This document shows, piece by piece, positions 7,926-37,750 of a stretch of DNA of 64,000 nt (positions are counted from its first letter, which is position 1; each line of letters starts with the position of its first letter). The notes beneath the pieces are model-generated. The model made no database searches, was not told the origin of the DNA, and saw nothing but the letters and a program-made list of their open reading frames with translations. Position numbers and translations under genes: made by a program. This stretch comes from Candidatus Woesearchaeota archaeon (GTDB taxonomy: Archaea; Nanobdellota; Nanobdellia; Woesearchaeales; GW2011-AR4): the NCBI GenBank assembly GCA_016181305.1, contig JACOZN010000010.1, forward strand, positions 133,242-197,241, given 5' to 3'.

Positions 7926-7985
7926 ACATTTTTAAACATAGTTTGTTTTCTCGGGTTCTCTGAAATAAAGGGCCAGAAGGAGATA

Positions 7986-8867
7986 GTGAAAAGAGTAAAA
8001 GCCTTTGTCGAGCAGCAGAATCTGCCTCATTTGTTGTTTGCAGGGCCTGCAGGAGTCGGCAAGACAAGCCTGTCATTAGTCATTGCAAAAAAGCTGTTCA
8101 AGGACTTGTGGCACCAGAATTTTCTTGAGCTGAATGCATCTGATGAAAGGGGCATTGACATCATAAGAAACAAGGTAAAGGACTTTGCGAGGACAAGGGC
8201 CATAGGCAATGTTCCTTTCAAGATAATTTATCTTGACGAGTGCGATGCATTGACGAGAGAGGCCCAGCAGGCTTTAAGAAGGACAATGGAGAACTACACC
8301 CAGACATGCAGGTTTATCTTGTCTGCAAATTACTCCTCAAAAATAATCGAGCCCATACAAAGCAGGTGCGTTGTTTTCCGCTTTAAGCAGCTGGACAAAA
8401 AAGACATCATTGAAATCATTGAAAAGATTGCAAAGGACGAGAAATTAAAAATTGACGAGAAGGCAAAAGATGCATTGTATGAGATTTGCGAAGGAGACTG
8501 CAGGAAGCTGGAAAACATCCTGCAAAGCTCTGCTGCAATTGCAGAGCACATAACAGAGGATTTGGTGCATTCAATGGCTTCAGTGGCAAAGCCAAAAGAG
8601 ATAAGGGATGTCTTGGAGCTTGCATTGAGCAACAAATTCATTGACGCAAGGAACAAATTGCTTGGTCTGATGCTGAGCTATGGGTTGGCCGGCATTGACG
8701 TAATAAAGCAGATACAAAAGGAAATTTTGGATTTAGGCATAGACAACAAAGCCAAGATGATTCTGATAGAGAAATGCGGCGAAATTGAGTTCAGGATGAC
8801 AGAAGGCTCTGATGAGTTTGTGCAGCTGGAAGCCTTGCTGAGCCAGTTTGCCCTTGTCGGGAGTTAA
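7986..8867 (+). CDS. rfcS: replication factor C small subunit (clamp loader)
   Basis: Walker A GPAGVGKTS, DEAD-like YLDECD, SRC motif and LEALLSQFALVG C-terminus. GTG start. The frame is open upstream and still matches RFC (IKGQKEIVKR), but there is no ATG and no PWVEKYRP box. Confidence 0.85.
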   Translation: MKRVKAFVEQQNLPHLLFAGPAGVGKTSLSLVIAKKLFKDLWHQNFLELNASDERGIDIIRNKVKDFARTRAIGNVPFKIIYLDECDALTREAQQALRRTMENYTQTCRFILSANYSSKIIEPIQSRCVVFRFKQLDKKDIIEIIEKIAKDEKLKIDEKAKDALYEICEGDCRKLENILQSSAAIAEHITEDLVHSMASVAKPKEIRDVLELALSNKFIDARNKLLGLMLSYGLAGIDVIKQIQKEILDLGIDNKAKMILIEKCGEIEFRMTEGSDEFVQLEALLSQFALVGS

Positions 8868-9880
8868 GGGGCATCAGCCAGGTGCTTTATCAAAACCTTT
8901 TTTTCTTTGCTGTCCAGAATGTTGTAAGTCAGCAGTATTCCCATTGTCTTTTCCAGATCAAGCCTGTCTGACACCAGGTCAGCTGTGCATGTTACTGTTC
9001 TCTTGTTGCCAACAAGCTTTACAACGCCCTCAAAGCTGTTGTCCAGGCCCCCGCACTTGAGATTTGTCACAACAGGGTCAACAGGTATCTCGAGCAGCTC
9101 GACTCCCACATTGTTTTCAATCTCCCTCCTCATCCTTGGGTCGCGCGGGCATGCAGCGTCAAAGCCGCTTGAGGGTGTTCTCTTATCCCTGCTCCAGAAT
9201 ATGTCTACATTCCCGTTTAAAGAAATGTCAAAGCTGAAAGTAATCTTGTCCTTGCCTACAACGCTCTGCCTGAAATTTGACACCTGCACAGGCGCTGAAG
9301 AGCTGTATACTGTCCTTGTCGAGGTTGGTTTGCATATTGCATTGTCCCTCACGTTTATCATGTCCTTTAGCATGCACAGCTTTGTGTTGGCTTCTGTCCT
9401 GTAGTTGTAGCAGGCATCTGCCCTGAAAGTGAATTCTGTGTTGCCGCTGAATTTCCTCGGCACGAAGCTGTCGCCGCCTTTCGGGAATGTGACAAATGTA
9501 GTTGTTCCTTCCACTATATTGCCTTCTGCATCCCTTTTTCTGGATTCCAATGTGTCTTCCGGCTGGTTGTCGGACAAGTCAGAGAATGTCTTGCCAAAGT
9601 CGTTTGGGTCAAATCCTACTAGGTTGACCCTTATGGCATTGCTGTCAACTTTGAACTCGCCGTCATTCTTAAGCTTTACAATGACGTTAAACGCGAACGA
9701 AGAGTCGTCAGTTACTTCGGGGGGCGGGCTGTCTTTCTCAAAATCCATTGTAATGCCTGCTGTCCCGCCTATGAAAGGGGTCCTTGGCGCTCCTCCTGTT
9801 GCAGCGCCGCTTTTCTTGCAGGCAGAAACTAAAAGAATTAAACAGATAAGCAATGCAATGACATAATACTTCTTATTCAT
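8864..9880 (-). CDS. secreted lipoprotein-like protein, paralog 1 of 3
   Basis: Signal peptide plus a Cys lipobox-like site (LVSACKK). Shares G(T/S)EG..F....PPP, ACYNY..E..KLC and SAPVQV blocks with 9948..11180 and 11177..12244. Confidence 0.6.
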   Translation of the reverse strand: MNKKYYVIALLICLILLVSACKKSGAATGGAPRTPFIGGTAGITMDFEKDSPPPEVTDDSSFAFNVIVKLKNDGEFKVDSNAIRVNLVGFDPNDFGKTFSDLSDNQPEDTLESRKRDAEGNIVEGTTTFVTFPKGGDSFVPRKFSGNTEFTFRADACYNYRTEANTKLCMLKDMINVRDNAICKPTSTRTVYSSSAPVQVSNFRQSVVGKDKITFSFDISLNGNVDIFWSRDKRTPSSGFDAACPRDPRMRREIENNVGVELLEIPVDPVVTNLKCGGLDNSFEGVVKLVGNKRTVTCTADLVSDRLDLEKTMGILLTYNILDSKEKKVLIKHLADAP

Positions 9881-9947
9881 TTTGCCTCTTTTATTTTGAT
9901 GAACTATTTATTTTAATGTTTATATATAAAGTTTTTGGTTTGTTGAC

Positions 9948-11180
9948 TTAATCCGCATATCTTGTACATTGATTTGTTGTTTTATCGAACTCGAGGCAAA
10001 TGTCGGTTTCCCCGCTTGGTAAAGGCTGGCCTTCATATGACGGGCTTGGTGATGTGCTTGCCCCGCCTGAAGAAACACCTGTATCCGTGCTGCTAACGCC
10101 AGTCACCTCCCTCTTTATCTGAATTTTTTTCTCTATTGTTGTCCTATAAACATAAGACAGTTTGATTTCTAAAGGGGTTATATAAGCTGTTTTGCTAGAA
10201 CTGTACTCGTTCCTTGGTAGCTCACAAATTATTGAACCTTCGCTGTTCTGAATAAGTTTTATGAAACCTGACTGGGATTTAACCTGCCCATCAACGAATG
10301 GGCTGCATTGCAATGGCTTGTTGCTTACTTTCACATTTATTAAATAAACCTTGTCTACATCCTCTCTTTGTAGCTTGCTATCGCCAAAAGGGTTGCACTT
10401 GTCTTCCCCTAATACGTACGGCTTGAGCACGTCCCCATTGCCAACATTCTTTATTGTTATCCTAAACTGAGTTTTTGTGGCAAATGCTTCTTCATTGACT
10501 GCTGTAACAGCTACCGGAGCGCCTTGGTTGGATAATGCAGTATCCTTTACTTCGCAAACCTTTTTTTCCTTTATTGTTGAGTAAGGATTGGGGTCAATGC
10601 AAACTGATGGGTTTGCAGTTGTCTGGTACTCATAGCATGCAGTCGCTTGTATCACTGGTTCGTATTTCTCAACATTTAAATTCTCAGCAATTACCCTTCC
10701 TTTGAAAGTTGCAAAATCCAACCCTCCATTTGGGTTGATTGAAGTTTTTCCCTCCAGTGTTTTTCTGCTCAAATCTTCAATTGGGGGCTTAGGCTCAAAA
10801 AAATCCAATATGTTTGGGTCGTAGCCGCCTAGATAGATTTTGCCGTGAAGCCCAAATGGCTCAAAACCGCTGCCCTCTCCAAATTCCGGATACGCTCCCT
10901 TGTTCCTTACTTCCATAACGACATCAAACCTGTTCAACTCTGAGTCTGCACCTTTCTCAACATGAATCCTTTCAGGCGGGTTATTTGGGAGAAAGCTCAT
11001 AGCAAGCCCTTCTGTTCCAACTCTCAGCTCCTCCAGTGTTTTAGTTGTGCTGCTTTTTCCCACTTTGCCGCATGCAGAAATTAACACCAAAACGACAAAG
11101 AATGCTGCAAATAATGCCTTTTTTCCCAATTTTACCACTCTTTTCCAAATCCCGAACTTTTTGTATATAAATCTTATCAA
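9948..11180 (-). CDS. secreted lipoprotein-like protein, paralog 2 of 3
   Basis: Signal peptide with ISACGK. ATACYEYQT..VCIDPN and GAPVAVTAV blocks align with the neighbouring paralogs. Confidence 0.6.
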   Translation of the reverse strand: MIRFIYKKFGIWKRVVKLGKKALFAAFFVVLVLISACGKVGKSSTTKTLEELRVGTEGLAMSFLPNNPPERIHVEKGADSELNRFDVVMEVRNKGAYPEFGEGSGFEPFGLHGKIYLGGYDPNILDFFEPKPPIEDLSRKTLEGKTSINPNGGLDFATFKGRVIAENLNVEKYEPVIQATACYEYQTTANPSVCIDPNPYSTIKEKKVCEVKDTALSNQGAPVAVTAVNEEAFATKTQFRITIKNVGNGDVLKPYVLGEDKCNPFGDSKLQREDVDKVYLINVKVSNKPLQCSPFVDGQVKSQSGFIKLIQNSEGSIICELPRNEYSSSKTAYITPLEIKLSYVYRTTIEKKIQIKREVTGVSSTDTGVSSGGASTSPSPSYEGQPLPSGETDICLEFDKTTNQCTRYAD

Positions 11181-12244
11181 TATTTTATCGGCTTCTGTAT
11201 TAAAAATGTGTCAGCAATAGTCTGCACGTAGCCATAGTCTATCTCAATTCTTAAAGGCGATGAAAAGGCATCGTCTGTTTTCTTGATGCCGTCCTTGAAA
11301 GTGCACCTTACAAAGTCCTTCTTGTCCCTGAACCTTACGAAGCCTGCAATCTTGTCAGGGTTGTTCTCGTTTTCAGGGCACTGCCCGTCTATATTCGGGC
11401 AGCATACAAGCTGGATGCCCCTGTCGCCGACTCCCTTGCCGGATGTGTAAGCCCTCAAAAAAGCGACATTCCATGCATTTTTTATTTCGTCTTGGGTTAA
11501 TGGGCTTGCATCCACAATTGCTGGGTCTTTCACGCATAGCCTCTGGAAACTATTTATGTTTGCAGAACTGCCTTTTCCCTTGTTTTCCACAAATATCAAA
11601 AACTGCGGCTTTATTATATCGCCTTCAGGAATCATCTGCGGCTCTATCCTTGTGACAGCAATTGGAGCGCCCTGCCCTGTATTGAATGGAATCTCCTTGA
11701 CTTTGCAAGCCTTTTTGCTCGGTCTTAGCTCCCCGATGTCAGGGTCAATGCATACTGTAGTGCTTAGAAGTGTCTGATACGGATAGCATAAAGTGGCTGT
11801 TATTGTTGACTCCTTGTTCTCGCTCTGGGGGTCAAGCTTAGCTGTCTTTGCTGTAATGGCTGCAATTAACTCATCCCCTTTTGGGTTAATTTTTGTCTTT
11901 CCTTCTACGCCAAAAAGCAGTATGTCACCACGCTGCCCCATTTTCGGGTTTGGCTCGAGAGTTATTTCAGGTACATAGTCTTTTTCCCTGCCGATAGCCA
12001 GAATTCCTGCTCTTGATACGCCTACACTGTATGCACCTTTGTTTCTTATCTTTATCAGTATAGGAAAGCTGCTTTGCTCAAAGACTCTTGGAGGAGGTGC
12101 TGTTTTTGAGAATTCCGCAGTCAATCCCTCTGAGCCTACATAGACATTGACTTGGGCTGATTTTGAGGTGGTTGTGGAGGTGGAGCAGCCTATAATCATT
12201 AAAAATAAAGATATTAAGGCTATTAGCATGATTTGTTTTTTCAT
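11177..12244 (-). CDS. secreted lipoprotein-like protein, paralog 3 of 3
   Basis: Signal peptide with IIGCST. ATLCYPYQT..VCIDPD and GAPIAVTRI blocks. 4-bp overlap with the downstream paralog. Confidence 0.6.
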   Translation of the reverse strand: MKKQIMLIALISLFLMIIGCSTSTTTSKSAQVNVYVGSEGLTAEFSKTAPPPRVFEQSSFPILIKIRNKGAYSVGVSRAGILAIGREKDYVPEITLEPNPKMGQRGDILLFGVEGKTKINPKGDELIAAITAKTAKLDPQSENKESTITATLCYPYQTLLSTTVCIDPDIGELRPSKKACKVKEIPFNTGQGAPIAVTRIEPQMIPEGDIIKPQFLIFVENKGKGSSANINSFQRLCVKDPAIVDASPLTQDEIKNAWNVAFLRAYTSGKGVGDRGIQLVCCPNIDGQCPENENNPDKIAGFVRFRDKKDFVRCTFKDGIKKTDDAFSSPLRIEIDYGYVQTIADTFLIQKPIKY

Positions 12245-12250
12245 TTTAGC

Positions 12251-15200
12251 TTAAGGTATTGTAATATTGGGGGTTTCAACTGAGCCATAAATATTATCAT
12301 TGTTATCAACTGCATAAATAAGGTACGAGTATGTTAAACCTGATTTTATGCCAGAGTCCTTGTAGGAATTCTGTTCTGTATAGAAAGAATCCTCGCTATT
12401 GCCTTCACGGTACCTTGTTATAAGGTATTTAGTCGCCTTTTGGTTTTCTGATTTGCTCCACTTGATTAGCACTATATGGTTTGAACTATCGTACGTAGCT
12501 TCCGGATTGGCTAAAGTGGGTGTTTGTAGTTGTTCACTTGGAATGTACTCTATCTTCAATTGATTTCTTAAGGTATTGTAAGCAGCTATCACTTTTTTTA
12601 CATATTCCCTAGTGTTTGTTTTTCTGTCCGTACTCCAGCAATTGTCTGGATTCAGATAGTAAAACCCATGAACTGTGTCTGAATTCATTGCCTTTTCTCC
12701 ACAATTGTAACCAGCAGCAATAACGCTCAGATCTGCCGGTAAGTTTTTGTTTTTTTGTATATCAATAAGATATTTTATATATTTTACACCACAATCTACA
12801 TTTGATTCAACGTCTTTGTTCCAATCAGTGCAGCCTAAACCCTGTGCAGTAGGTGTAAGTACCTGCATTAAACCGTAAGAGCCTCCTTTTTTTGCATCGC
12901 CAAAAGTGGTTGGATTCCAAGCTGCATTCTCCGTATGTATTATAGCTTTTACAAACAAGTAATCAACAAGGTATTTTTTTGCTATTCCAAACACAATTGG
13001 GCTATATTTAATTTCATTTTGATTGGCTTTGCTGAAAAAAATGTCTGCATATTTCTGATCAGAAATTTGAGCATCATAATCTGGAGTTCTTTTTTCCTCT
13101 AGCGTAGGCGCCTGCTCGACAGTAACAGGCACCTGCGACTCAACAAGATAATCATACCTAGCCCTTATCCTGATGAATTTTGTTGTTATGGGCGCGTTTT
13201 CCAGAACATCATTTTTGTTTAGGTTAAGCCTGCAGGAGAATGTAAGGAACCTGCCGCTTTCAATGTCCCTGAATTGCTCTTTGTCGCCTCGTCTTTTAAT
13301 GTCCTCGACTGCAAGCTGGTAGCCGGTGTACTCCTCAGCGCCAATCTCACTTTTGAAAAGGTTGTCGCAGTCATCATTGCATTTCTTGACTGAAGTGTCG
13401 CAGTTGAAAATACACTGCTGGTCGCTTTTGTCGCATATGTCTAGACAAGGTTGGCGGACTTTATCCTCGCATGATTTTGAGCAGTCTTCCTTTGAGAAAG
13501 GCTTGAACCTTACAGGCCTGCAGGTTTCCAGATTTTCCGGATTGATTGTGATGCCTTTCGGCACAACGACATTAAGCTCTTTAATCTCCTTTATTTTCCC
13601 ATTCCACTTCCCGACAGGATTGCCCTTGCTGTCTGTTATTTTGCCCCTGTTTGTGAGGGTTATGAACAACGCCGGGCTGGTGCCCTTGTCAGAAACCGAT
13701 ATAAGGCTTTGTATTCCTACTCCAATCTCAACAGGCCCATTTGTGGATATTGACTTGGGTGTTCTGTCTGCTATGCCAAATTCCTTTAATGGGTCAAGGT
13801 TTTCCCTTATCATGGCGCGATGCCTTTCAGCGTCAATGAAGTAAACTTTTTGGTAGGATATTGTAGGGAAATTATATGTGGCGGAAAGAATAAGGGTGTT
13901 TGCTCCAGCCTGAAGCTTGTTTTTGCTGAATGTGCACTCAACATCCTTCTCCTCAAGTGTATAGACTGTGAATTGCTTGTCGGGAATTACAATGTCCTTG
14001 GTTTCAGCAGTTCCAGTCTTATCAGCTTCTATCGGCTTGTTGTCCTTGAACCTAAAGCATGTAAACTGGACATTGACAGGGTCGCTCAACGTCCTTGACT
14101 TTATAGTGCCCCATATTGTAACAGGCTCGTCTGTATAGAACCTTGGCTGTGCAGGCTTAACCCTGTCAAAAACAACTCCAAGAGGCTCAAACTGGTTTTT
14201 CTCGACAAAGCCCATATACTGGTCCGAAATCAATCCGCCTGTTGCATAGTCAATTGACTTGCCTGCAGCTCTTGCTACACCAACCCCAAAATTTGAAATT
14301 GATTCCAAAATGCCGCCCAAAAAACCTTTTGCGCCTTGCGTTGCCTCTGCCCTTTCGAATGAGGTGCCTTCCTCAGAGCTTTCTGCTATGGTTGGAGAAA
14401 AGATTATGAAGAACACCATGGCAATCACCAGCAAAAAAAGGTTGCCTCTTGCGAATTTGCTTCCGGTGAACTGCGCCAGATAATAAGAGCTTATAAGCAC
14501 CAATATCGGGAAATATGACAGAACAACGTTGCCAAAATTCAGGCTGTAAAGGAAGAAATCACCAACTAAAAAGAGGGATGTAAATATATAGAGCTGGCTT
14601 TTGTTGATTTGCGGCTGAAAATAGAGGTAAAAATAGAATCCAATTATGAATATTACATGCAACACTGCTTTTACATCCTTTGTCCAGCTCCAGTTTATGA
14701 AAAAAAAGGAGAATGTTAAAGCCATTACAGCATAGCAAAATGTTTCTGAAGCGACATAATCATATCCATTACGATGCAATACCACCAAGCCTATTACGGC
14801 TAAAACAGCAAGCACTATAATACTAAAGTAAGGGATTGTTACGTTAGCAAACTCTAACCTGTAATAAATCCTGGAGTACAGCAATGCAAGTGCCATGAAT
14901 GCGCCAAAAAAAACAAATTGCCTGTGGGGCTCAAACATATTAGTCATGATACTCCACGCCAAAAATGCCACAATAGCGCCAGATGTGACAACTGCATACC
15001 AGTTTGTTTGAGTGATAAGTAAAGTTGAGAAATTAAAGCCGATATAACGTCCGCCAAAATAAGGTGTTAAGTCAAAGCCCCAAATCATGTAAGCAAATAT
15101 TATTATGATGATTGGTCCCCAGCCTGCTGTCTCTTTTCCGGTATTAACCACTATGTTTGGATTTATGGGGCTGCCACCATATGCTGTAGCAGAAGATTTC

Positions 15201-15499
15201 TTAGGTTGTTCGTCTGATTTCCCAAAAAATCCCCTTGCTTTTCCAGCAACCCTTCCTAATTTTGAGGTATATGGCTCATCTTCTCTCTCCAATCGCTCCA
15301 TTCTTTTTTGAATTTGATTTTCTCTCTCCTCATTTTCTGCTTCTTTTCTCTTAGCCCCCAATCTTTCTCTGGCTCTTTCTAATATCTCTGCTTCCCTTGC
15401 TTCGGCTTCCTTCTGTCTTCTTGTTCTATCTCTATCCGTCCTGCTTACACCAGCCGCCTCTAATTCTCTATCTTCTTCTGTTTCAGTATCATAAGCCAA
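12251..15499 (-). CDS. large polytopic membrane protein with an extracellular family-1 lytic transglycosylase (SLT) domain and a C-terminal FN3-like domain
   Basis: 1082 aa. Charged coiled N-terminus, then about 8–10 TM helices. A Cys-rich segment (CSKSCEDK..CLDICDK..CIFNCD..CNDDCD) is present. The SLT motifs are IIHTENAAWNP...GGSYGLMQVLTPTA...AAGYNCG; compare E. coli Slt70 ESAWNP...GASGLMQIMPGTA...AYNAG. A C-terminal FN3-like beta-sandwich follows. Confidence 0.75.
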   Translation of the reverse strand: MAYDTETEEDRELEAAGVSRTDRDRTRRQKEAEAREAEILERARERLGAKRKEAENEERENQIQKRMERLEREDEPYTSKLGRVAGKARGFFGKSDEQPKKSSATAYGGSPINPNIVVNTGKETAGWGPIIIIIFAYMIWGFDLTPYFGGRYIGFNFSTLLITQTNWYAVVTSGAIVAFLAWSIMTNMFEPHRQFVFFGAFMALALLYSRIYYRLEFANVTIPYFSIIVLAVLAVIGLVVLHRNGYDYVASETFCYAVMALTFSFFFINWSWTKDVKAVLHVIFIIGFYFYLYFQPQINKSQLYIFTSLFLVGDFFLYSLNFGNVVLSYFPILVLISSYYLAQFTGSKFARGNLFLLVIAMVFFIIFSPTIAESSEEGTSFERAEATQGAKGFLGGILESISNFGVGVARAAGKSIDYATGGLISDQYMGFVEKNQFEPLGVVFDRVKPAQPRFYTDEPVTIWGTIKSRTLSDPVNVQFTCFRFKDNKPIEADKTGTAETKDIVIPDKQFTVYTLEEKDVECTFSKNKLQAGANTLILSATYNFPTISYQKVYFIDAERHRAMIRENLDPLKEFGIADRTPKSISTNGPVEIGVGIQSLISVSDKGTSPALFITLTNRGKITDSKGNPVGKWNGKIKEIKELNVVVPKGITINPENLETCRPVRFKPFSKEDCSKSCEDKVRQPCLDICDKSDQQCIFNCDTSVKKCNDDCDNLFKSEIGAEEYTGYQLAVEDIKRRGDKEQFRDIESGRFLTFSCRLNLNKNDVLENAPITTKFIRIRARYDYLVESQVPVTVEQAPTLEEKRTPDYDAQISDQKYADIFFSKANQNEIKYSPIVFGIAKKYLVDYLFVKAIIHTENAAWNPTTFGDAKKGGSYGLMQVLTPTAQGLGCTDWNKDVESNVDCGVKYIKYLIDIQKNKNLPADLSVIAAGYNCGEKAMNSDTVHGFYYLNPDNCWSTDRKTNTREYVKKVIAAYNTLRNQLKIEYIPSEQLQTPTLANPEATYDSSNHIVLIKWSKSENQKATKYLITRYREGNSEDSFYTEQNSYKDSGIKSGLTYSYLIYAVDNNDNIYGSVETPNITIP

Positions 15500-15617
15500 T
15501 TTACTCCACCATTTTTGCTTTACTCATTTTTGTCGTTAAAATAACTCAACCTAAAGAATTCTTCCCAACCACCTCTTGTTTTTAAGCAATTTAATTTAAA
15601 TAAAATAAGCATTATAA

Positions 15618-16802
15618 CTAAGCCAGTCTGACTCTTAACTCAGCGACTTCTATGTCTTCCAGCGGCTCAAGCCTTACGAAGTTGTTGCCTTCTGAAACCC
15701 TGCCGTTGATGTTTTTTGTGAATGACATCTTGTCCGTCTCCACAGTGTCTATGTGCCCGTTGATGTCCATTTTTATTCTTTTCTTTTTCTGGCTGTCTGT
15801 GAACTTCAATGTGACTTCGATGTTTACATCCCCGTCCCTTATCTGCGTGAAGGTTGCCGGCTTTACCTCAAAATAGTATGTTCTGGATGAAGCATCATTA
15901 AACTCAAGGGCTATGCCGATCTGCTCAACGCTGTAGCTGCCCTTGCTTGTCTTGAAAACAACATTGTTCTCGCCTTGGTTTAGGGCGCTTTTCGGTATGC
16001 TCTGCCTGTACGCGTCATTGCACTTCGGCACAGAGGAGAACAGCTTCTTGTTGTTTATGAAAATGTCCAAAGTTCCAAGCTGGTTTACATTGCCGCAGTA
16101 TGGCACGAACTTGAGCGTTGCCTTTTCCATGCTTGCGAACTCCGGATCGCTCAATACGAATAGGTTTGTGGATTCCTGCCTGCTTGTGTCTGTTATGTCA
16201 CCTATTATCCTGATATTCTCAAAGCTGTACTCGTTCGTAGTCCAGAATCTTGCCCCTACAGACGAAACGCTGAACTCGAGAGAATTCTGCTTCATGAGCA
16301 GCTTCTTGTCCAGCTTGACAGGCTCGACAATCTCGGATGCAATCTCATTCTCAAAAACAATCACATTGTTGAGCTTTATTTCAAGAACACCTTTCCTCTT
16401 CTTGGCTGCGAAAGACAAAACAACATTGTCTGTATTGTCAATGTCCTCGATAACAAAGTCTATATTCCTTGTTTTTTTGTCAAACCACCCGTTCCTTACT
16501 ATAAAAGGGTTTATCTTTTCTAAATCCTTTGCGTTGGTTGTCTCAACCAAGAATATGTTGGGGATTTTTTTCTCGCTCTCCATGCTCCTTGACGTGCTCA
16601 ATGCCCCTGGGCTTGCCTGCAGCAGGATGTTCGGGCTTTCCCCTAGCGCGGGCTCCGGCTGCTTCTTTTCAATCAGCTTTTCCCTCTCTCCTGAAGGCAG
16701 AAATACGATGTAAAGAATTATAAGGCCTGCTATTATTGCAACTAAAACAGCGGCGTTCATGCCGCCTTGGGCTTTATTTTGCATCACAACACCTTTTTTC
16801 AC
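15618..16802 (-). CDS. membrane-anchored extracellular protein (first gene of the surface-protein operon)
   Basis: N-terminal TM anchor (AAVLVAIIAGLIILYIVFL) followed by an extracellular region of about 350 aa. No recognised family. Confidence 0.5.
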   Translation of the reverse strand: MKKGVVMQNKAQGGMNAAVLVAIIAGLIILYIVFLPSGEREKLIEKKQPEPALGESPNILLQASPGALSTSRSMESEKKIPNIFLVETTNAKDLEKINPFIVRNGWFDKKTRNIDFVIEDIDNTDNVVLSFAAKKRKGVLEIKLNNVIVFENEIASEIVEPVKLDKKLLMKQNSLEFSVSSVGARFWTTNEYSFENIRIIGDITDTSRQESTNLFVLSDPEFASMEKATLKFVPYCGNVNQLGTLDIFINNKKLFSSVPKCNDAYRQSIPKSALNQGENNVVFKTSKGSYSVEQIGIALEFNDASSRTYYFEVKPATFTQIRDGDVNIEVTLKFTDSQKKKRIKMDINGHIDTVETDKMSFTKNINGRVSEGNNFVRLEPLEDIEVAELRVRLA

Positions 16803-27258: not shown

Positions 27259-28272
27259 ATGATTGTAGTGATGAAAAAGAATGCAACCGAAAACCAGGTG
27301 CAAAGAGTGGTTGAGAAGATACAGGAAAGCGGCTTGAAAGCGCACCTGTCGAAAGGAGATATAGTGACAATAATAGGGATTATAGGCGATGAAAGGAAAG
27401 TCCCGGAGTCGCAGATAAGGGCGATAGAGGGTGTGGAGAAGATTATGCCTGTGCTCGCCCCCTACAAGCTTGCAAGCAGGGACTTCAAGCCCGATAACAC
27501 AATAATAAGCGTTGACGGGGTCAAAATCGGCGGCAATGAGGTTGTTGTGATGGCAGGCCCCTGCTCTGTTGAAAGCAGGGAGCAGATTATAGAAACTGCT
27601 AAAGCCATAAAAAAATCAGGGGCAAAAGTATTAAGAGGCGGCGCATTCAAGCCAAGAACATCGCCTTATTCCTTCCAGGGCTTGGGAGAGGAAGGGTTAA
27701 AATTGCTGAAGCATGCAAAGGAGGAAACAGGCATGCCGATAGTAACAGAGGTAATGGACACCAGAAACGTGCCTTTGGTGTGCAAGTATGCTGACATCCT
27801 GCAGCTTGGCGCAAGAAACATGCAGAATTATGACTTATTAAAGGAAGTCGGAAGGTGCAAGCGCCCTGTTTTATTAAAAAGAGGGCTTTCAGCTACAATA
27901 ACAGAATGGCTCATGAGCGCAGAATACATAATGTCAGAGGGCAACCATAACATAATTTTGTGCGAGCGTGGCATAAGGACATTTGAAACTCTTACAAGAA
28001 ACACTCTGGACCTGAATGCAGTGCCTGCTGTAAAGGAGCTAACACATTTGCCGGTTATAGTCGACCCAAGCCATGGGACTGGAAAGTATACTTTGGTCAG
28101 CCCGATGGCTAAAGCTGCAGTTGCCGCAGGAGCAGACGGGCTATTAATTGAAGTCCATACAAATCCTGAAAAATCAGTCAGCGATGCCGACCAAACCATA
28201 AGCACAAAAAGATTTGAGAATCTCATGAGAGAGCTAAAGCTTATAGCAAGCGCAATAGGAAGAAAGGTGTAA
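27259..28272 (+). CDS. aroG: 3-deoxy-7-phosphoheptulonate (DAHP) synthase, type I-beta with an N-terminal ferredoxin-like regulatory domain
   Basis: KDO8P/DAHP synthase core with GPCSVES, KPRTSPYSFQG and DPSHG. The N-terminal extension of about 80 aa resembles the Thermotoga-type allosteric domain. Confidence 0.85.
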   Translation: MIVVMKKNATENQVQRVVEKIQESGLKAHLSKGDIVTIIGIIGDERKVPESQIRAIEGVEKIMPVLAPYKLASRDFKPDNTIISVDGVKIGGNEVVVMAGPCSVESREQIIETAKAIKKSGAKVLRGGAFKPRTSPYSFQGLGEEGLKLLKHAKEETGMPIVTEVMDTRNVPLVCKYADILQLGARNMQNYDLLKEVGRCKRPVLLKRGLSATITEWLMSAEYIMSEGNHNIILCERGIRTFETLTRNTLDLNAVPAVKELTHLPVIVDPSHGTGKYTLVSPMAKAAVAAGADGLLIEVHTNPEKSVSDADQTISTKRFENLMRELKLIASAIGRKV

Positions 28273-28273
28273 G

Positions 28274-29362
28274 ATGGAAGTTGTAAAAGTTGATTTGAGG
28301 GAAGAGATAGACAACTCTTATGATATCACCATCGGCAGGGGCTTATTGGAAGGCCTTGCCATGGAACTAAAAAAAAATCCCGCAAATAAGTTTGTGATAA
28401 TAACGGACTCCAATATTGCAGGAACCTATGGCAAAAGGCTCCTTAACGATTTGAAGAAGAGGAATATTGGCGCACATTTGATAAATTTTCCCGCAGGAGA
28501 GAAAAGCAAGACAAGAAAAACAAAAGAAAAGATAGAAAATGAAATGCTTAAGCTTGCTTTAGGAAGGGATGCCTGCATCATTTCTCTTGGAGGCGGTGTT
28601 GCAGGGGATATTGCCGGGTTTGCAGCGGCAACCTACATGAGGGGAATTCCGTACATTCAGGTGCCTACAACCTTGCTTGCAATGGTTGACAGCTCCATAG
28701 GGGGAAAAGTTGCCGTTGATACTATGCATGCAAAAAACGCAATAGGCTCATTCTACCAGCCAAAAAAAGTTGTCGTTGACCTGAATTTCCTTAAAACACT
28801 GCCAAAAAAAGAGTTGGTGAACGGGCTGGCAGAGCTGATAAAGCATGCCCTGATAAAAGACAGGGGTTTTTTCCATTTTATAGAAAAAAACATCGGCGGG
28901 ATTCTGGCCTGTGATGCGGACATTTTGAAGACTGCGATAAAAAGGAGCTGCGAGATTAAAGCGGATATTGTGATGCAGGATGAAAAGGAAAAAGGAATTA
29001 GAAGAATCCTCAACTACGGGCATACAATCGGGCACGCTATTGAATCCTCATTGGGCTACAAAATAAGCCACGGCAATGCTATTGCCATTGGAATGGGCTA
29101 TGCTGCAAAGCTTTCCGCCAAGCTTGGTTTTCTGCATGAAGGCTCTGTTATAAGGCAGAATAACCTGCTGGAATACATAGGACTGCCGCATAAGTTAAGC
29201 CATCACAAGCTAAAGCCCAGGAAGATACTTGAGCATATACAATACGATAAAAAAATAACGAACGGCAGAATAAATTTTGTATTGCTGAATTCCATAGGAG
29301 ATGCATTTGTCTCTGATGATGTCGCGATAGAAGACATTAAAAATATTCTTGAAGAACGATAA
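28274..29362 (+). CDS. aroB: 3-dehydroquinate synthase
   Basis: GGGVAGDIAGFAAATYMRGIPYIQVPTTLLAMVDSSIGGK motif block. Confidence 0.9.
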   Translation: MEVVKVDLREEIDNSYDITIGRGLLEGLAMELKKNPANKFVIITDSNIAGTYGKRLLNDLKKRNIGAHLINFPAGEKSKTRKTKEKIENEMLKLALGRDACIISLGGGVAGDIAGFAAATYMRGIPYIQVPTTLLAMVDSSIGGKVAVDTMHAKNAIGSFYQPKKVVVDLNFLKTLPKKELVNGLAELIKHALIKDRGFFHFIEKNIGGILACDADILKTAIKRSCEIKADIVMQDEKEKGIRRILNYGHTIGHAIESSLGYKISHGNAIAIGMGYAAKLSAKLGFLHEGSVIRQNNLLEYIGLPHKLSHHKLKPRKILEHIQYDKKITNGRINFVLLNSIGDAFVSDDVAIEDIKNILEER

Positions 29363-29363
29363 A

Positions 29364-30827
29364 ATGCTGGCAGCTGTAATAACAGAACTCAAAGACATTC
29401 CAAAAGCAAAAGATGCCGATTTGATAGAGCTGAGGCTGGATTATATAAAAGGATTGAATAATACAAAGCTAAAAAGCTTGATAGAAAACTGCAAGAAACC
29501 TGTAATTGTGACGAATAGGAAAAAGGGCGAAGGCGGCCTCTTTAATGGAAGCGAGGCAAAAAGAATTGAAATATTAAAAAATGCTATTAAATTTGGTGCA
29601 GGCTATGCTGATATTGAATATTCTTCAGGTAAAGAATCTATAAGAAATTTAATCCAAAATAAAAGGAAAACAAAGATAATTGTCTCTTACCATAATTTTA
29701 AAGAAACGCCGGCAAATATCAAAAAGATCTACGGCAATATCAAGAAATTAAATCCTGACTTGATCAAAATAGCCACTAATGCGCGCTCTGTCACTGACAA
29801 CTTCAGGGTATTCGGCTTAATCGGGAAAGCGAATAAAGAGAAAAGGAAAATAATTGCTTTCTGCATGGGAGGCTATGGAAAATTCAGCAGAATCTTAAGC
29901 ATAATTCTCGGCTCGCAGGTAACTTATGCGTCAACCGGCAAAGGAAAAGAATCCGCAGGCGGGCAATTAACAATGAATGAGATGGTTGAGCATTATAGAA
30001 TTAAAAAAATAAATAAAAACACTAAAATTGTCGGCTTGATAGGAAATCCCGTTGAACATTCCTGGTCGCATATAATGCATAATGCCGCTTTTGATAGATT
30101 AGACATTAATGCAGTTTATCTGAAATTTCAGGCAGATAAGCTGAAAGAGTTTATTGAACACATGAAAAATCTGGATATAATCGGCTTTAGCGTCACAATC
30201 CCGCATAAAGTTGAAGTTATGAGATATCTTGATGAGATAGACAAACAAGCGAAGGGGATTAGCGCAGTCAATACTATTGTTGTGAAAAACGGCAGATTAA
30301 TTGGGTACAATACAGACTGCCCGGGAGCCATAAAATCATTGAAGCGAATAACAGAATTAAAAGGAAAGAATGCTGTTGTCTTAGGTGCAGGCGGGGCAGC
30401 AAGGGCAATAATTTATGGTTTGATGGAGAATAAATCAAATGTTAAGATATTGAACAGGACTGCTGAAAAAGCAAAATTATTAGCTGATTATTTCAAGTGC
30501 GATTATGGCTCTTTAGATGATATTAAAAAAACTGATTATGATATTCTAATTAATACCACCCCTGCCGGAATGCACCCGCACATAGGCGGCTCCCCTGTTC
30601 CGCCCGACTGCATCAAAAACGGCGCTGTTGTTTTTGACATGGTTTTTAACCCTTACAAGACAAAATTGCTTGTTGAAGCTGAAAAGAGGAATTGCAGAAT
30701 AATTGCCGGGTTTGAGATGCTGATTCACGGGGCTCTGCTGCAATTCAAGCTATGGACCGGAAAAGAAGCCCCAGAGCGATTAATGCGGCTAAAAGTTATG
30801 GAGTTTTTAAAAAATGCTGGCCATTAA
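29364..30827 (+). CDS. bifunctional 3-dehydroquinate dehydratase (type I) / shikimate 5-dehydrogenase fusion
   Basis: N-terminal half has the type-I DHQase architecture. C-terminal half has the SDH motifs GLIGNPVEHSWS and GAGGAARA. The ATG at 29364 follows the aroB stop; the track start at 29349 is TTG. Confidence 0.85.
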   Translation: MLAAVITELKDIPKAKDADLIELRLDYIKGLNNTKLKSLIENCKKPVIVTNRKKGEGGLFNGSEAKRIEILKNAIKFGAGYADIEYSSGKESIRNLIQNKRKTKIIVSYHNFKETPANIKKIYGNIKKLNPDLIKIATNARSVTDNFRVFGLIGKANKEKRKIIAFCMGGYGKFSRILSIILGSQVTYASTGKGKESAGGQLTMNEMVEHYRIKKINKNTKIVGLIGNPVEHSWSHIMHNAAFDRLDINAVYLKFQADKLKEFIEHMKNLDIIGFSVTIPHKVEVMRYLDEIDKQAKGISAVNTIVVKNGRLIGYNTDCPGAIKSLKRITELKGKNAVVLGAGGAARAIIYGLMENKSNVKILNRTAEKAKLLADYFKCDYGSLDDIKKTDYDILINTTPAGMHPHIGGSPVPPDCIKNGAVVFDMVFNPYKTKLLVEAEKRNCRIIAGFEMLIHGALLQFKLWTGKEAPERLMRLKVMEFLKNAGH

Positions 30828-32070
30828 AACAAAAAAATATGTCAAAGCTGTGATTGAAGCGCCGCCATCAAAAAGCTATACCCAGAGGGCTTTGGTGATT
30901 GCAGCTCTTGCCAACGGCAAATCAGTTATAAAAAACCCGTTATTCAGCGACGACACCTGCCATATGATTTCTGCGTTGAAAGCGTTTGGGGCAAGGATAG
31001 AGAGAAAAGGCAGCAGCCTTGCTGTTTACGGAACAAACGGAAAGCTCAAGCAGCCAAAAGGCAGGATTTTTGCAGGGAATGCAGGCACGACAATGCGGTT
31101 CATAACAGCTTTTGCCTCCCTTGCTGACGGGGCTTCTGTAATAACAGGAGACAAGAGGATGCAGCAACGTCCAATAAACGACCTGCTTGATGCACTGCGG
31201 CAATTAGGGGTGAAAAGCGAAAGCAGCAGCGGATGCCCGCCTGTAAAGATTTACGGGGGAAATTTTATCGGCGGAACTGCGAAATTAAAAGGCAGCATAA
31301 GCAGCCAGTATTTATCATCCATTCTTATGGTTGCGCCATACGCCGAAAAGGATGTAAAAATAAGCATTACGGGGAACCTGGCATCAAAGCCGTATGTTGA
31401 CATAACCATAGATGTCATGAAGAATTTTGGAGTTGACATAAAAAATGTAAAATATGAAAAATTTATAATAAAAAACACCAAAAAATACAAATCTGGGGAT
31501 TATGCTGTTGAGGGCGACGCCTCGAGCGCGAGCTACTTCTTTGCAGCAGCTGCCGTGACAAAAGGAAGAATAATGGTAAAGAATATAAACCCCAAATCAA
31601 AACAGGGAGATATAAAGTTTGTTGACATACTAAAAAGAATGGGGTGTGGCGTAAGGAATGGAAACAGCTTTATCGAGGTGCAGGGTGGCAGCCTCAAAGG
31701 CGTTGATGTTGACATGAACGAGATGCCTGATATCGTGCCTACACTTGCTGTGACGGGCCTTTTTGCAGATTCGGCAACCACAATAAGAAATGTGCCCAAC
31801 CTGCGGCTGAAGGAGACTGACAGGCTTAGGGCCCTGGCGTTTGAACTTAGAAAGACAGGCGCCAATGTGGAAGAAATGCAGGACGGATTGCGTATAAAAA
31901 GAAGAAGGCTGCAAAAAGCGATAATTGAAACTTATAATGACCACAGGATGGCAATGAGCTTTGCCGTAGCGGGCTTGGTTATCAATGGGATAAGGATAAA
32001 AAACCCAGGCTGCGTTGCAAAATCATTTCCTGATTTTTGGGAAAAATTCAACGAGATGTATAAAAGATGA
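30814..32070 (+). CDS. aroA: 3-phosphoshikimate 1-carboxyvinyltransferase (EPSP synthase)
   Basis: PPSKSYTQRAL, GNAGTTMRF and RMAMSFAVAG motifs. Confidence 0.9.
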   Translation: MLAIKTKKYVKAVIEAPPSKSYTQRALVIAALANGKSVIKNPLFSDDTCHMISALKAFGARIERKGSSLAVYGTNGKLKQPKGRIFAGNAGTTMRFITAFASLADGASVITGDKRMQQRPINDLLDALRQLGVKSESSSGCPPVKIYGGNFIGGTAKLKGSISSQYLSSILMVAPYAEKDVKISITGNLASKPYVDITIDVMKNFGVDIKNVKYEKFIIKNTKKYKSGDYAVEGDASSASYFFAAAAVTKGRIMVKNINPKSKQGDIKFVDILKRMGCGVRNGNSFIEVQGGSLKGVDVDMNEMPDIVPTLAVTGLFADSATTIRNVPNLRLKETDRLRALAFELRKTGANVEEMQDGLRIKRRRLQKAIIETYNDHRMAMSFAVAGLVINGIRIKNPGCVAKSFPDFWEKFNEMYKR

Positions 32071-32576
32071 ATATAGCGCTTATAGGCTTCAGGGGAACTG
32101 GCAAAACAACCTTATGCAGGCTGCTTGCCAACAGGCTCGACAGGAAGCTCATATCAACAGACGAGGAAATAGAGAAGAGAACAAAAATGAGCATAGCCAA
32201 GTTTGTGAAAAAATACGGCTGGGAGAGGTTCAGGGAAATCGAGGCCGATGTTATAGAAAGCATCAGCGACTTTGATGACTGTGTGTTTGACACGGGCGGA
32301 GGCATTATAATGAGGAATGAGAATATTATCAACCTGAAAAAAAACACTTTGATTGTGCTGCTGACTGCTGATATAAAGACAATAACAAGCAGGCTCAAAA
32401 ACAATAAAAGGCCTGCACTGACGAAAAGCAATTACCTTGACGAGATAAAGGATGTACTGAAGGAGCGCGAGGAAAGGTACAAAACAGCAGCGGATTATGC
32501 CATTGACACGTCAAGGCTGGCTCCTGAAGAGGCATGCGATTTGATTATGCACTATGTGCAGATGGAGATGCAATAA
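32067..32576 (+). CDS. aroK: shikimate kinase, bacterial AroK/AroL (P-loop NMP-kinase) type
   Basis: GFRGTGKTT Walker A and about 170 aa. This is not the GHMP-type shikimate kinase typical of archaea. Confidence 0.8.
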   Translation: MNIALIGFRGTGKTTLCRLLANRLDRKLISTDEEIEKRTKMSIAKFVKKYGWERFREIEADVIESISDFDDCVFDTGGGIIMRNENIINLKKNTLIVLLTADIKTITSRLKNNKRPALTKSNYLDEIKDVLKEREERYKTAADYAIDTSRLAPEEACDLIMHYVQMEMQ

Positions 32577-32578
32577 AA

Positions 32579-37738: not shown

Positions 37739-37750
37739 ATAACAGATAAA

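What the first reader, a model, noticed from the sequence alone, without database searches (positions are those of the whole stretch)
8864..16802. Five-gene co-directional operon of surface proteins: membrane-anchored protein, SLT giant, and three tandem paralogous Cys-lipoprotein-like genes
All five ORFs are on the minus strand with gaps of 6–118 bp, and one 4-bp overlap (11177–11180). The order is anchor protein (15618..16802), SLT giant (12251..15499), then three paralogs (11177..12244, 9948..11180, 8864..9880). The paralogs share a signal peptide with a Cys lipobox-like site. They also share the blocks G(T/S)EG..F....PPP, A(T/D)ACY.YQT...VCIDP and GAP(V/I)AVT. Tandem triplication with divergence is typical of surface-exposed, host-facing or antigenically variable components. 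I recognise no known family for the paralogs or the anchor protein. The unit looks like an uncharacterised cell-surface or host-interaction module built around the murein-cleaving protein.
Basis: partly seen in the sequence, partly recalled or inferred. Interest (0 to 1): 0.7.

Follow-up and report, generated by a model that had tools for sequence, protein, structure and literature searches.

The report
Woesearchaeal envelope operon with swappable wall-cutters
This is a real five-gene cell-surface operon, fixed at one chromosomal site in a group of tiny DPANN archaea (Woesearchaeota), whose large membrane protein carries an exchangeable tip that usually cuts bacterial cell wall, which points to these archaea making contact with bacteria.

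Summary
Five co-directional minus-strand genes sit at the stated coordinates. The SLT domain is real, and the three downstream genes are true paralogs with conserved lipoboxes.

The window is a Woesearchaeota (DPANN archaeon) chromosome. In all 36 species-level genomes where the three paralogs resolve as single ORFs, the order is the same: Pelota | anchor–giant–C–B–A | RFC. No locus showed any other order or a scattered copy.

- **Triplication:** it is ancient, and each copy is orthologous by position. It is not a variable antigen family.
- **Giant:** it has a cytoplasmic tail, nine transmembrane helices, a strongly conserved two-β-sandwich ectodomain, and a distal exchangeable module.
- **Distal module across 49 loci:** SLT in 28, GH73 glucosaminidase in 4, M23 peptidase in 2, phage-tail lysozyme in 1, and Ig/FN3-like repeats, other sequence or nothing recognised in 14.
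- **Recent swap:** a relative with 87–92 % DNA identity has exactly the SLT+FN3 cassette replaced by GH73.

The unit is therefore built around a lineage-specific membrane scaffold, not around the SLT.

Best reading (about 0.5): a surface complex that holds a murein hydrolase against bacterial walls.

The large SLT proteins were already noted in the literature. I found no description of the operon, the scaffold or the module swapping.

The parts
15618..16802 (-). Anchor protein (394 aa; likely start Met7 at 16784). Bitopic, with a nearly invariant N-terminal TM helix (QGG(M/L)NAAILVAIIAGLIILYIVFLP, aa 12-36; nt about 16698-16754) and an extracellular part with CBM-/lectin-like β-sandwich signatures.
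   Evidence: ORF; single TM segment. It has 593 homologues, all from Woesearchaeota/Nanoarchaeota and all annotated hypothetical, at 62-73 % identity. The invariant TM columns are in alignment A4. A weak Pfam CBM-like PF14683 match occurs in 41 of 43 members and the Sialidase N-terminal lectin domain in 13 of 43. There is no sequence relative in the PDB.
15500..15617 (-). 118-bp AT-rich spacer between the anchor and the giant. It contains T-tracts and TATA-like boxes, so a possible internal terminator or promoter. An SD-like GGTGGAG lies before the giant's TTG start.
   Evidence: Sequence read directly. Function is inferred only.
15140..15499 (-). Giant, aa 1-120: cytoplasmic, E/K/R-rich, low-complexity N-terminal tail. 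Hypervariable.
   Evidence: Alignment A3. Window 15191-15486 cannot be aligned at DNA level to a relative that is otherwise 87-92 % identical.
14384..15139 (-). Giant, aa about 121-372: polytopic membrane domain of 9 helices (11 in some orthologues), N-in/C-out. Invariant D143, G149, G154, H281, D314-F315 and Y318. This is a lineage-specific family.
13100..14383 (-). Giant, aa 373-800: a linker followed by a strongly conserved ectodomain (YATGG…VEKNQFEPLGV…AQPRFY…SRTLSDP). It consists of two β-sandwich domains, each ending in a long β-hairpin. A Cys-rich helical insert lies at aa about 660-715 (nt 13355-13522).
12491..13087 (-). Giant, aa about 805-1003: SLT / GH23 lytic transglycosylase domain, the exchangeable distal module.
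   Evidence: Pfam SLT E 1.7e-10. PHROG matches to lytic tail proteins. Goose-type lysozyme 3gxk alignment with the catalytic Glu and the GLMQ and YNxG motifs. The cassette at window 12197-13103 is replaced by GH73 in L065.
12251..12490 (-). Giant, aa about 1004-1082: FN3-like C-terminal domain plus the stop codon.
   Evidence: Sequence pattern in A3. Pfam fn3 matches at the equivalent position: weak, below the curated cut-off, in L016 and L009; at or just under the cut-off in P0335 and P0328. In the window itself there is only a weak pAdhesive_11 match.
11177..12244 (-). Paralog C (355 aa): Sec signal peptide plus lipobox (IIGC, Cys20), then two β-sandwich domains with conserved cysteines.
9948..11180 (-). 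Paralog B (410 aa as listed; likely start GTG at 11138, giving 396 aa): lipobox ISAC, plus a C-terminal Ser/Thr/Pro-rich tail with a Cys pair.
   Evidence: hhalign against C gives 4.5e-69.
8864..9880 (-). Paralog A (338 aa): lipobox VSAC. It is the best-conserved of the three (45 % mean pairwise identity). Its stop codon overlaps the stop of the convergent RFC gene by 4 bp.
   Evidence: hhalign against B gives 1.4e-49 and against C 1e-35.

Best explanation
The locus encodes a lineage-specific, chromosomally fixed cell-envelope complex of Woesearchaeota-type DPANN archaea.

Proposed parts:
- **Giant:** a membrane-embedded scaffold with a cytoplasmic tail, nine TM helices, a rigid two-β-sandwich extracellular stalk and an exchangeable distal module.
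- **Lipoproteins C, B and A:** three ancient paralogs with the same kind of two-sandwich architecture.
- **Anchor:** a bitopic protein with CBM-like domains and an invariant TM helix.

I propose that the lipoproteins and the anchor assemble with the giant on the outer face of the membrane. In most species the distal module is a peptidoglycan hydrolase. The archaeon itself has no murein, so the complex most likely acts by contact. It would hold the hydrolase against a bacterial cell wall and open the sacculus locally, for attachment, access to the bacterial membrane or contents, or release of wall fragments.

**Shown:** gene content, order and conservation; membrane topology signals; lipoboxes; paralogy; hydrolase identities; cassette swapping.

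**Inferred:** physical assembly of the five proteins, surface exposure, the bacterial target, and the purpose of the cleavage.
For: 1. The organism is an archaeon. The neighbours are RFC small subunit, Pelota and Cas4-like genes, and every homologue that carries a source name is labelled Woesearchaeota or Nanoarchaeota.
2. The five genes sit in the same order between Pelota and RFC in 36 of 36 species-level loci where the three paralogs resolve as single ORFs, with anchor identity falling to 36-37 %. No locus showed a different order or a scattered copy.
3. The paralogs are orthologous by position in 106 of 108 comparisons. This fits three distinct subunits of one assembly.
4. Four unrelated murein-hydrolase families occupy the same C-terminal position on the same scaffold:
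   - SLT in 28 loci (local HMM; Pfam-checked on a subset: above the cut-off for the window, L006 and L016, below it for L009 and L030);
   - GH73 glucosaminidase in 4;
   - Peptidase_M23 in 2;
   - Phage_lysozyme2 in 1.
   The only substrate these families share is bacterial peptidoglycan.
5. A relative at 87-92 % nucleotide identity differs by a clean replacement of window 12197-13103 (SLT+FN3) with a GH73 cassette. The breakpoint lies at the end of the ectodomain.
6. The hydrolase is fused to a 9-TM protein rather than secreted, so it can act only at the cell surface.
7. The anchor's TM helix is nearly invariant and the giant's TM domain carries invariant polar residues. This is consistent with contacts within the membrane.
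8. The ectodomain folds resemble adhesin, integrin-leg and pilin tandem β-sandwiches.
9. Published work proposed, from the SLT proteins alone, that such Woesearchaeota may be episymbionts or predators of bacteria (PMC8204110, PMC9723730).
Against: - Nothing here shows that the five proteins bind each other, that they are expressed, or that the hydrolases are active.
- About 14 of 49 loci have no recognisable hydrolase: Ig/FN3-like repeats, Cys-rich tails or nothing. The core must therefore have a role that does not need murein cleavage.
- The strict position next to housekeeping genes and the fairly high conservation (anchor 52 % mean identity) would also suit a structural envelope component.
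- No transporter, ATPase or secretion component is co-encoded that would explain uptake or injection.
- No host of these archaea is known.
Confidence: 0.5

Rival explanations
1. It is a structural envelope or S-layer-like lattice. The anchor, the giant ectodomain and the three lipoproteins would form the cell's own surface layer, a housekeeping structure. The hydrolase or Ig/FN3 tip would be an optional decoration.
For: The operon is present in every locus recovered (all found through their anchor gene) and keeps a fixed position among housekeeping genes. The core persists without any hydrolase in about 14 of 49 loci. Tandem β-sandwich domains with lipid or TM anchoring are typical of archaeal surface-layer proteins (general knowledge). 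Lipoproteins are common in DPANN (PMC12462473).
Against: There is no match to known S-layer families. Mean identity of 39-52 % across this clade is high for S-layer proteins, which usually diverge fast (general knowledge). A 9-TM domain with invariant Asp and His residues is not expected for a lattice anchor. Repeated acquisition of murein-specific enzymes at the tip needs its own explanation.
Confidence: 0.2
2. It is a nutrient-scavenging surface enzyme complex. The tethered hydrolase would digest free murein or necromass. The lipoproteins and the CBM-like anchor would capture the released muropeptides and amino sugars for uptake, with no living host involved.
For: The hydrolases are murein-specific. 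The anchor has CBM-/lectin-like signatures. DPANN depend on scavenged building blocks (PMC8204110, PMC11537232).
Against: No ABC or other transporter and no amino-sugar catabolic gene is linked to the operon in any of the 36 complete loci. The paralogs are all-β proteins, not solute-binding folds. A diffusible enzyme would suit insoluble necromass better than a membrane-integral one.
Confidence: 0.15
3. It is an antibacterial weapon. The surface-displayed hydrolases would kill competing or attacking bacteria on contact, like the secreted peptidoglycan hydrolases of haloarchaea.
For: Archaeal peptidoglycan hydrolases with bactericidal activity exist, including a glucosaminidase-domain protein (PMC12352652). 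Module swapping resembles polymorphic toxin systems.
Against: Weapons are usually accessory, patchily distributed and often on mobile DNA. This locus is fixed in one chromosomal site, has ordinary base composition and is absent from viral contigs. No immunity-like gene is present or needed. The core is conserved even without a hydrolase.
Confidence: 0.1
4. It remodels the archaeon's own wall polymer, as an autolysin or space-maker for an envelope structure (the FlgJ/VirB1 role).
For: Machine-associated hydrolases in bacteria show the same interchange of SLT, GH73 and M23 domains (general knowledge of FlgJ, SltF, VirB1 and EtgA).
Against: Archaea are not known to make murein (general knowledge). 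No Mur-type genes were seen in the parts of the 64-kb window that were annotated. M23 and GH73 are specific for the bacterial peptide and glycan chemistries.
Confidence: 0.03

Closest known systems
[quoted passage not shown] 2021, PMC8204110; also Vigneron et al. 2022, PMC9723730)
   Same: The giant appears to belong to this reported group: a large Woesearchaeota protein with an SLT/GH23 domain, proposed to bind or degrade bacterial walls. I did not compare it with fam00969 sequences directly.
   Different: Those papers describe the SLT domain and the protein size only. In the passages I searched they do not describe the 9-TM scaffold, the conserved ectodomain, the fixed five-gene operon, the three paralogous lipoproteins, the anchor, or the replacement of SLT by GH73, M23 or phage lysozyme.
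Specialised peptidoglycan hydrolases of envelope-spanning machines and phage virions (FlgJ/SltF, VirB1, EtgA; phage tail and tape-measure lysins)
   Same: A murein hydrolase is fused or tethered to a structural scaffold so that it cuts locally. The same set of interchangeable families is used (SLT, GH73, M23, lysozyme). The window's SLT domain matches PHROG lytic tail proteins.
   Different: There is no homology outside the hydrolase domain. The scaffold is an archaeal polytopic membrane protein. No flagellar, secretion-system or phage genes are nearby. The wall to be cut is not the cell's own.
Membrane-anchored hydrolases of Gram-positive conjugation systems (PrgK, TcpG, CwlT), which work alongside VirB6-like polytopic proteins
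   Same: A TM-anchored murein hydrolase acts at cell-cell contact, next to a polytopic membrane protein with a large extracellular domain.
   Different: No VirB4, coupling-protein or relaxase genes are present. The locus is chromosomal and universal rather than on a mobile element. There is no sequence or fold match. This comparison rests on general knowledge, not on a test.
Secreted bactericidal peptidoglycan hydrolases of haloarchaea (Woldo/Danwoldo; PMC12352652)
   Same: Both are archaeal proteins carrying bacterial-type murein hydrolase domains, including PF01832 glucosaminidase, aimed at bacteria.
   Different: The haloarchaeal proteins are soluble, Tat-secreted and use PG-binding domains. 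Here the enzyme is part of an integral membrane protein inside a conserved five-gene unit.
Tandem β-sandwich stalks of adhesins (integrin α legs, RbmA, MSCRAMMs, Gram-positive pilins, macroglobulin domains)
   Different: The similarity is at the level of single generic domains (5-15 % identity, large overall rmsd). No specific family relationship follows from it.

Membership tests
SLT / GH23 lytic transglycosylase (giant C-terminal domain) | Match to the family profile above the curated threshold | tested here: met
   PF01464 at 41 bits against a cut-off of 21.3, E 1.7e-10, aa 839-939.
SLT / GH23 lytic transglycosylase (giant C-terminal domain) | Catalytic Glu (E-S/E-N motif) plus the GLMQ and AYNxG motifs | tested here: met
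   HTEN…YGLMQV…GYNCG aligns with SRES…GLMQV…AYNTG of goose-type lysozyme 3gxk. The Glu column is at least 90 % conserved in A3.
SLT / GH23 lytic transglycosylase (giant C-terminal domain) | Cleavage of the MurNAc-GlcNAc bond of murein | not testable with these tools
   Needs an enzyme assay on sacculi.
Lipobox lipoproteins (paralogs A, B, C) | N-terminal signal peptide ending in [LVI][ASTVI][GAS]C | tested here: met
   IIGC (C20), ISAC (C37, or C23 from the likelier start) and VSAC (C21) follow hydrophobic segments. The motif is conserved in orthologues at 33/36, 29/36 and 36/36.
Lipobox lipoproteins (paralogs A, B, C) | Lipidation machinery present in the organism (archaeal AliA/AliB) and actual lipid modification | not tested
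   AliA is reported in DPANN, with gaps (PMC12462473). I did not look for it in this genome. The modification itself needs biochemistry.
Archaeal type IV pilin-like proteins (class III signal peptide) for the anchor | [KR][GA]↓ cleavage motif directly followed by the hydrophobic stretch | tested here: inconclusive
   The conserved element is QGG(M/L)NAA… preceded by K/R-A/S/G in many members, though not all. It resembles the class III pattern but does not fit it strictly. No pilus assembly genes are in the locus.
Class II fusogens (HAP2 / archaeal Fsx1) | Three-domain architecture with an elongated domain II bearing fusion loops | tested here: not met
GT-C glycosyltransferases / AglB-STT3 (considered for the giant's TM domain plus ectodomain) | Profile or fold match of the TM domain, and the WWDYG motif in the soluble domain | tested here: not met
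   No Pfam match. The TM profile finds 0 PDB sequences. There is only a weak Foldseek match of the β-rich ectodomain to the STT3 soluble domain (E 3e-4, TM 0.14-0.16). No WWDYG motif occurs in A3.
Fourth paralog hypothesis (giant ectodomain belongs to the A/B/C family) | Significant profile-profile similarity | tested here: inconclusive
   hhalign gives E 0.011-0.1 against 0.05-0.24 for a reversed-column control. The order of secondary-structure elements is collinear: two sandwiches, each ending in a long hairpin, with a helical insert in the second.
Mobile element / prophage cargo | Variable location, mobility genes, atypical composition, presence in viral contigs | tested here: not met
   The flanks are the same in all loci. 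GC is 0.41-0.45, like the surroundings. No relatives were found in 2.9 million viral contigs.

The most novel reading that the evidence does not exclude
The five proteins form a previously unknown kind of archaeal cell-to-cell contact machine. A pseudo-symmetric stalk, made of the giant ectodomain plus three related lipoproteins, would sit on a novel 9-TM base. It would breach a bacterial sacculus with an exchangeable enzymatic tip, and the TM domain would serve as the conduit or docking site through which a Woesearchaeote taps a bacterial host. If so, this clade would be episymbionts or predators of bacteria that use a device with no homologue among secretion systems, pili or phage tails.
Probability: 0.25. 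Interest if true: 0.9.

Novelty: new variant of a known kind. Interest (0 to 1): 0.62.

Why it matters
The hosts and lifestyle of Woesearchaeota, one of the most widespread DPANN groups, are unknown, and no cultures exist. Earlier work rested on the mere presence of SLT domains.

This analysis adds three points:
- The hydrolase is the exchangeable tip of a conserved, membrane-integral, five-protein unit.
- Four different murein-specific enzyme families have been recruited to that one position.
- At least one swap is recent.

This is much stronger genomic evidence that bacterial cell wall is the target. It also gives concrete reagents for experiments: distal modules for lysis assays, ectodomains as baits or antibody targets for finding partners by imaging, and an anchor gene conserved enough to serve as a clade marker. 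In addition it defines four protein families and one TM domain with no known relatives.

Tried and rejected
- **Giant ectodomain as a fourth paralog.** Profile-profile E-values of 0.011-0.1 are no better than about fivefold over a reversed-alignment control. I keep this as a structural impression only.
- **Fold searches.**
  - No membrane protein was listed for the TM domain.
  - The afdb50 library was unavailable.
- **Sequence searches.**
  - PDB profile searches for the anchor and the TM domain gave 0 hits.
  - PHROGs gave nothing for the anchor or for paralogs A and B, and only a marginal match (E 0.017, signal-peptide region) for C.
- **Class II fusogen reading.** Prompted by the Fsx1/HAP2 hits; rejected because only an Ig-like domain is shared.
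- **GT-C/AglB reading of the giant.** Rejected: no motif and no TM match.
- **Antigenic-variation reading of the triplication.** Rejected by positional orthology.
- **Prophage or mobile-island reading.** Rejected by fixed synteny, ordinary composition and absence from viral contigs.
- **Own-wall autolysin reading.** Judged unlikely; the parts of the window I annotated hold shikimate and tRNA-synthetase genes, not Mur genes.
- **Not attempted.**
  - The bacterial promoter/terminator scan was not used, because the organism is an archaeon.


Full report
**1. What is in the sequence**

| Gene | Coordinates | Length |
|---|---|---|
| Anchor | 15618-16802 | 394 aa |
| Giant | 12251-15499 | 1082 aa |
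| Paralog C | 11177-12244 | 355 aa |
| Paralog B | 9948-11180 | 410 aa |
| Paralog A | 8864-9880 | 338 aa |

- The gaps are 118, 6 and 67 bp.
- The 4-bp overlap between C and B exists only if B starts at the first TTG. Orthologues have about 23 residues before the lipobox cysteine, which fits a GTG at 11138.
- Base composition of the region (GC 0.41-0.45) matches the rest of the window.
- The neighbours are archaeal housekeeping genes: a Cas4-like nuclease, a PRC-barrel protein and RFC small subunit on one side, Pelota and acetyl-CoA synthetase on the other.
- Every homologue that carries a source name is labelled Woesearchaeota, Nanoarchaeota or Nanoarchaeia. One NCBI protein identical to the anchor lies on a 213-kb Woesearchaeota contig.
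- The window is therefore a DPANN archaeal chromosome, which changes the meaning of a murein hydrolase.

**2. The five proteins**

*Anchor*
- It has one N-terminal TM helix, which is almost invariant across 43 aligned homologues (QGG(M/L)NAAILVAIIAGLIILYIVFLP).
- It is the best-conserved of the five, at 52 % mean pairwise identity over 36 species. For comparison, Pelota is 63 % and RFC 77 %.
- It has no significant Pfam hit. A weak CBM-like match (PF14683) recurs in 41 of 43 members and a sialidase lectin-domain match in 13 of 43. This suggests jelly-roll, carbohydrate-binding-type domains.
- No solved structure is related by sequence.

*Giant*

| Residues | Segment |
|---|---|
| 1-120 | Hypervariable E/K/R-rich cytoplasmic tail |
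| ~121-372 | Nine TM helices (eleven in some orthologues) with invariant D143, G149, G154, H281, D314-F315 and Y318 |
| ~373-414 | Low-confidence linker |
| ~415-800 | Extremely conserved ectodomain |
| ~805-1003 | SLT/GH23 domain |
| ~1004-1082 | FN3-like end |

- The AF2 model of aa 110-800 (pLDDT 74) shows the helical bundle followed by two β-sandwich domains. Each sandwich ends in a long hairpin, and the second carries a Cys-rich helical insert.
- The TM-domain profile finds nothing in the PDB. It finds only 93 clusters among 1.84 billion representative proteins. The long hits place the TM domain near the N-terminus of a 650-1200-aa protein, and the rest are short fragments. It is a narrow, lineage-specific family.

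*Paralogs*
- They are 25-28 % identical, and their profiles match at E 1e-35 to 4.5e-69.
- Each has a signal peptide with a canonical lipobox that is conserved in orthologues.
- Paralog C models at pLDDT 93.6 as two β-sandwich domains.
- Lipoproteins are reported to be common in DPANN, and the archaeal lipidation enzyme AliA occurs there (PMC12462473).

**3. Conservation**

I searched one genome per species with the anchor profile and recovered 58 loci, with anchor identity from 96 % down to 36 %.

An ORF and HMM survey gave one result. Where the contig is long enough, the order is Pelota(−) | anchor, giant, paralog, paralog, paralog (+) | RFC(−), PRC(−), Cas4(−).
- 36 loci have all three paralogs as single ORFs.
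- A few others show split ORFs or run off the contig.
- One locus (L052) has an unrecognised 2.6-kb stretch where the giant should be.
- No locus shows another order or a scattered copy.

Metagenome contigs reached from paralog homologues as distant as 38 % identity show the same arrangement. No relative occurs in viral contigs.

The best cross-genome match of each paralog is the gene at the same position in 106 of 108 cases. The triplication therefore predates the radiation of these species, and each copy has its own conserved identity. That is the signature of three different subunits, not of a variable antigen family.

**4. The exchangeable tip**

Close homologues of the giant share the TM domain and the ectodomain but differ after residue ~800. 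Across 49 distinct loci the tail is:

| Tail | Loci | Source |
|---|---|---|
| SLT-type | 28 | Local HMM built from homologue tails |
| GH73 glucosaminidase PF01832 | 4 | E about 1e-16 |
| Peptidase_M23 | 2 | L061 E 5e-27; L055 E 1.4e-7 |
| Phage_lysozyme2 PF18013 | 1 | L034 E 5e-20 |
| No recognised hydrolase | 14 | |

- A subset of the 28 SLT calls was checked against Pfam. The match is above the curated cut-off for the window, L006 and L016, and weaker than the cut-off for L009 and L030.
- The 14 without a recognised hydrolase carry Ig-like repeats, FN3-like domains, Cys-rich tails or nothing. One of them (L057) looks SLT-like by eye.
- The most distant members of the TM family still carry SLT, with or without FN3, so SLT is probably the ancestral tip.

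Relative L065 is 87-92 % identical in DNA across the whole locus. Only two segments fail to align:
- the cytoplasmic tail (window 15191-15486);
- window 12197-13103, where SLT+FN3 is replaced by a GH73 cassette, with the breakpoint at the end of the ectodomain.

Four enzyme families with different chemistries were recruited to one position. They share one substrate, bacterial peptidoglycan.

**5. Interpretation**

The invariant unit is the scaffold, anchor and lipoproteins. The hydrolase is a tip module. Three facts point to cleavage of bacterial walls at the archaeal surface: the enzyme is part of an integral membrane protein, the organism has no murein, and the tip families converge on murein.

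My preferred model (about 0.5) is a contact-dependent, wall-breaching surface complex. I infer assembly of the five products from four observations:
- their co-conservation;
- their positional orthology;
- the invariant TM helix of the anchor;
- the similar two-sandwich architecture of the lipoproteins and the giant ectodomain.

None of this is direct evidence.

The loci without a hydrolase, the housekeeping neighbourhood and the moderate-to-high conservation keep a structural-envelope rival alive (0.2). Nutrient scavenging (0.15) and antibacterial defence (0.1) overlap with the main model in enzymology but differ in purpose. Own-wall remodelling is unlikely (0.03).

**6. Relation to what is known**
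- Large SLT-domain proteins of Woesearchaeota and Pacearchaeota were reported as fam00969 within a lineage-specific module of 51 mostly unknown families, and were interpreted as possibly binding or degrading bacterial walls (PMC8204110).
- Vigneron et al. made a similar argument for predation (PMC9723730).
- The passages I searched in those papers, and the other hits from two literature searches on Woesearchaeota wall hydrolases, do not mention the operon, the polytopic scaffold, the paralogous lipoproteins or the domain swapping.
- The closest functional analogy is the specialised hydrolases of flagella, secretion systems and phage tails, which use the same interchangeable enzyme families. 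PHROG matches of the SLT domain to lytic tail proteins fit this. There is no homology beyond the enzyme domain.
- I therefore rate it a new variant of a known kind: DPANN surface murein hydrolases. There is a real chance (about 0.25) that the whole assembly is a categorically new contact machine.

**7. Limits**
- The giant model is of moderate confidence.
- The fourth-paralog idea is not statistically supported.
- Operon status is inferred from spacing and conservation. The 118-bp and 67-bp spacers contain TATA-like boxes and could hold internal promoters.
- The SLT tally relies on a local HMM, cross-checked with Pfam on a subset only.

Noticed in passing
window 7926-7990 (start of RFC small subunit, 7986-8867 +): The RFC gene lacks about 16 N-terminal codons, including the conserved LWTEKYRP box found in all 320-aa orthologues. 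Compared with the close relative L065, about 69 bp are missing at window 7952-7955. This is either a real deletion or an assembly error.
   Followed up: partly
L028 9520-12387, L035 8480-11020, L050 17173-19719: RFC small-subunit orthologues of 846-955 aa, against about 320 aa elsewhere. They probably contain an intein.
   Followed up: no
window 15191-15486: The giant's cytoplasmic E/K/R-rich N-terminal tail cannot be aligned at DNA level to a relative that is 87-92 % identical everywhere else. Besides the hydrolase cassette, it is a second hypervariable segment of the gene.
   Followed up: partly
window 8864-8867, and the same junction in 8 other loci: The stop codons of paralog A and the convergent RFC gene overlap by 4 bp. 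This leaves no room for a terminator between the two transcription units, and the arrangement recurs in several species.
   Followed up: partly
L013, L017, L019, L025, L027, L028, L030-L033, L036, L041, L044, L046, L050, L051, L055, L063, L064 (record titles): Species-representative contigs that carry this Woesearchaeota-type locus are titled 'uncultured Methanosarcinales archaeon'. These MAGs are probably mislabelled.
   Followed up: no
window 27259-34497 and 36218-39406: A co-directional shikimate/chorismate operon is present: DAHP synthase, DHQ synthase, DHQase-shikimate dehydrogenase fusion, EPSP synthase, chorismate synthase and prephenate dehydrogenase. It is followed by PheRS alpha and beta. 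This DPANN genome therefore keeps much of aromatic amino-acid synthesis.
   Followed up: partly
L052 7744-10338: In one species the 2.6-kb slot between the anchor and the first paralog gave no ORF matching the giant-core profile. The giant there is either highly diverged or disrupted.
   Followed up: no
P0304 (aa 708-760): A distant member of the giant family carries a beta/gamma-crystallin domain in the tail position instead of a hydrolase.
   Followed up: no
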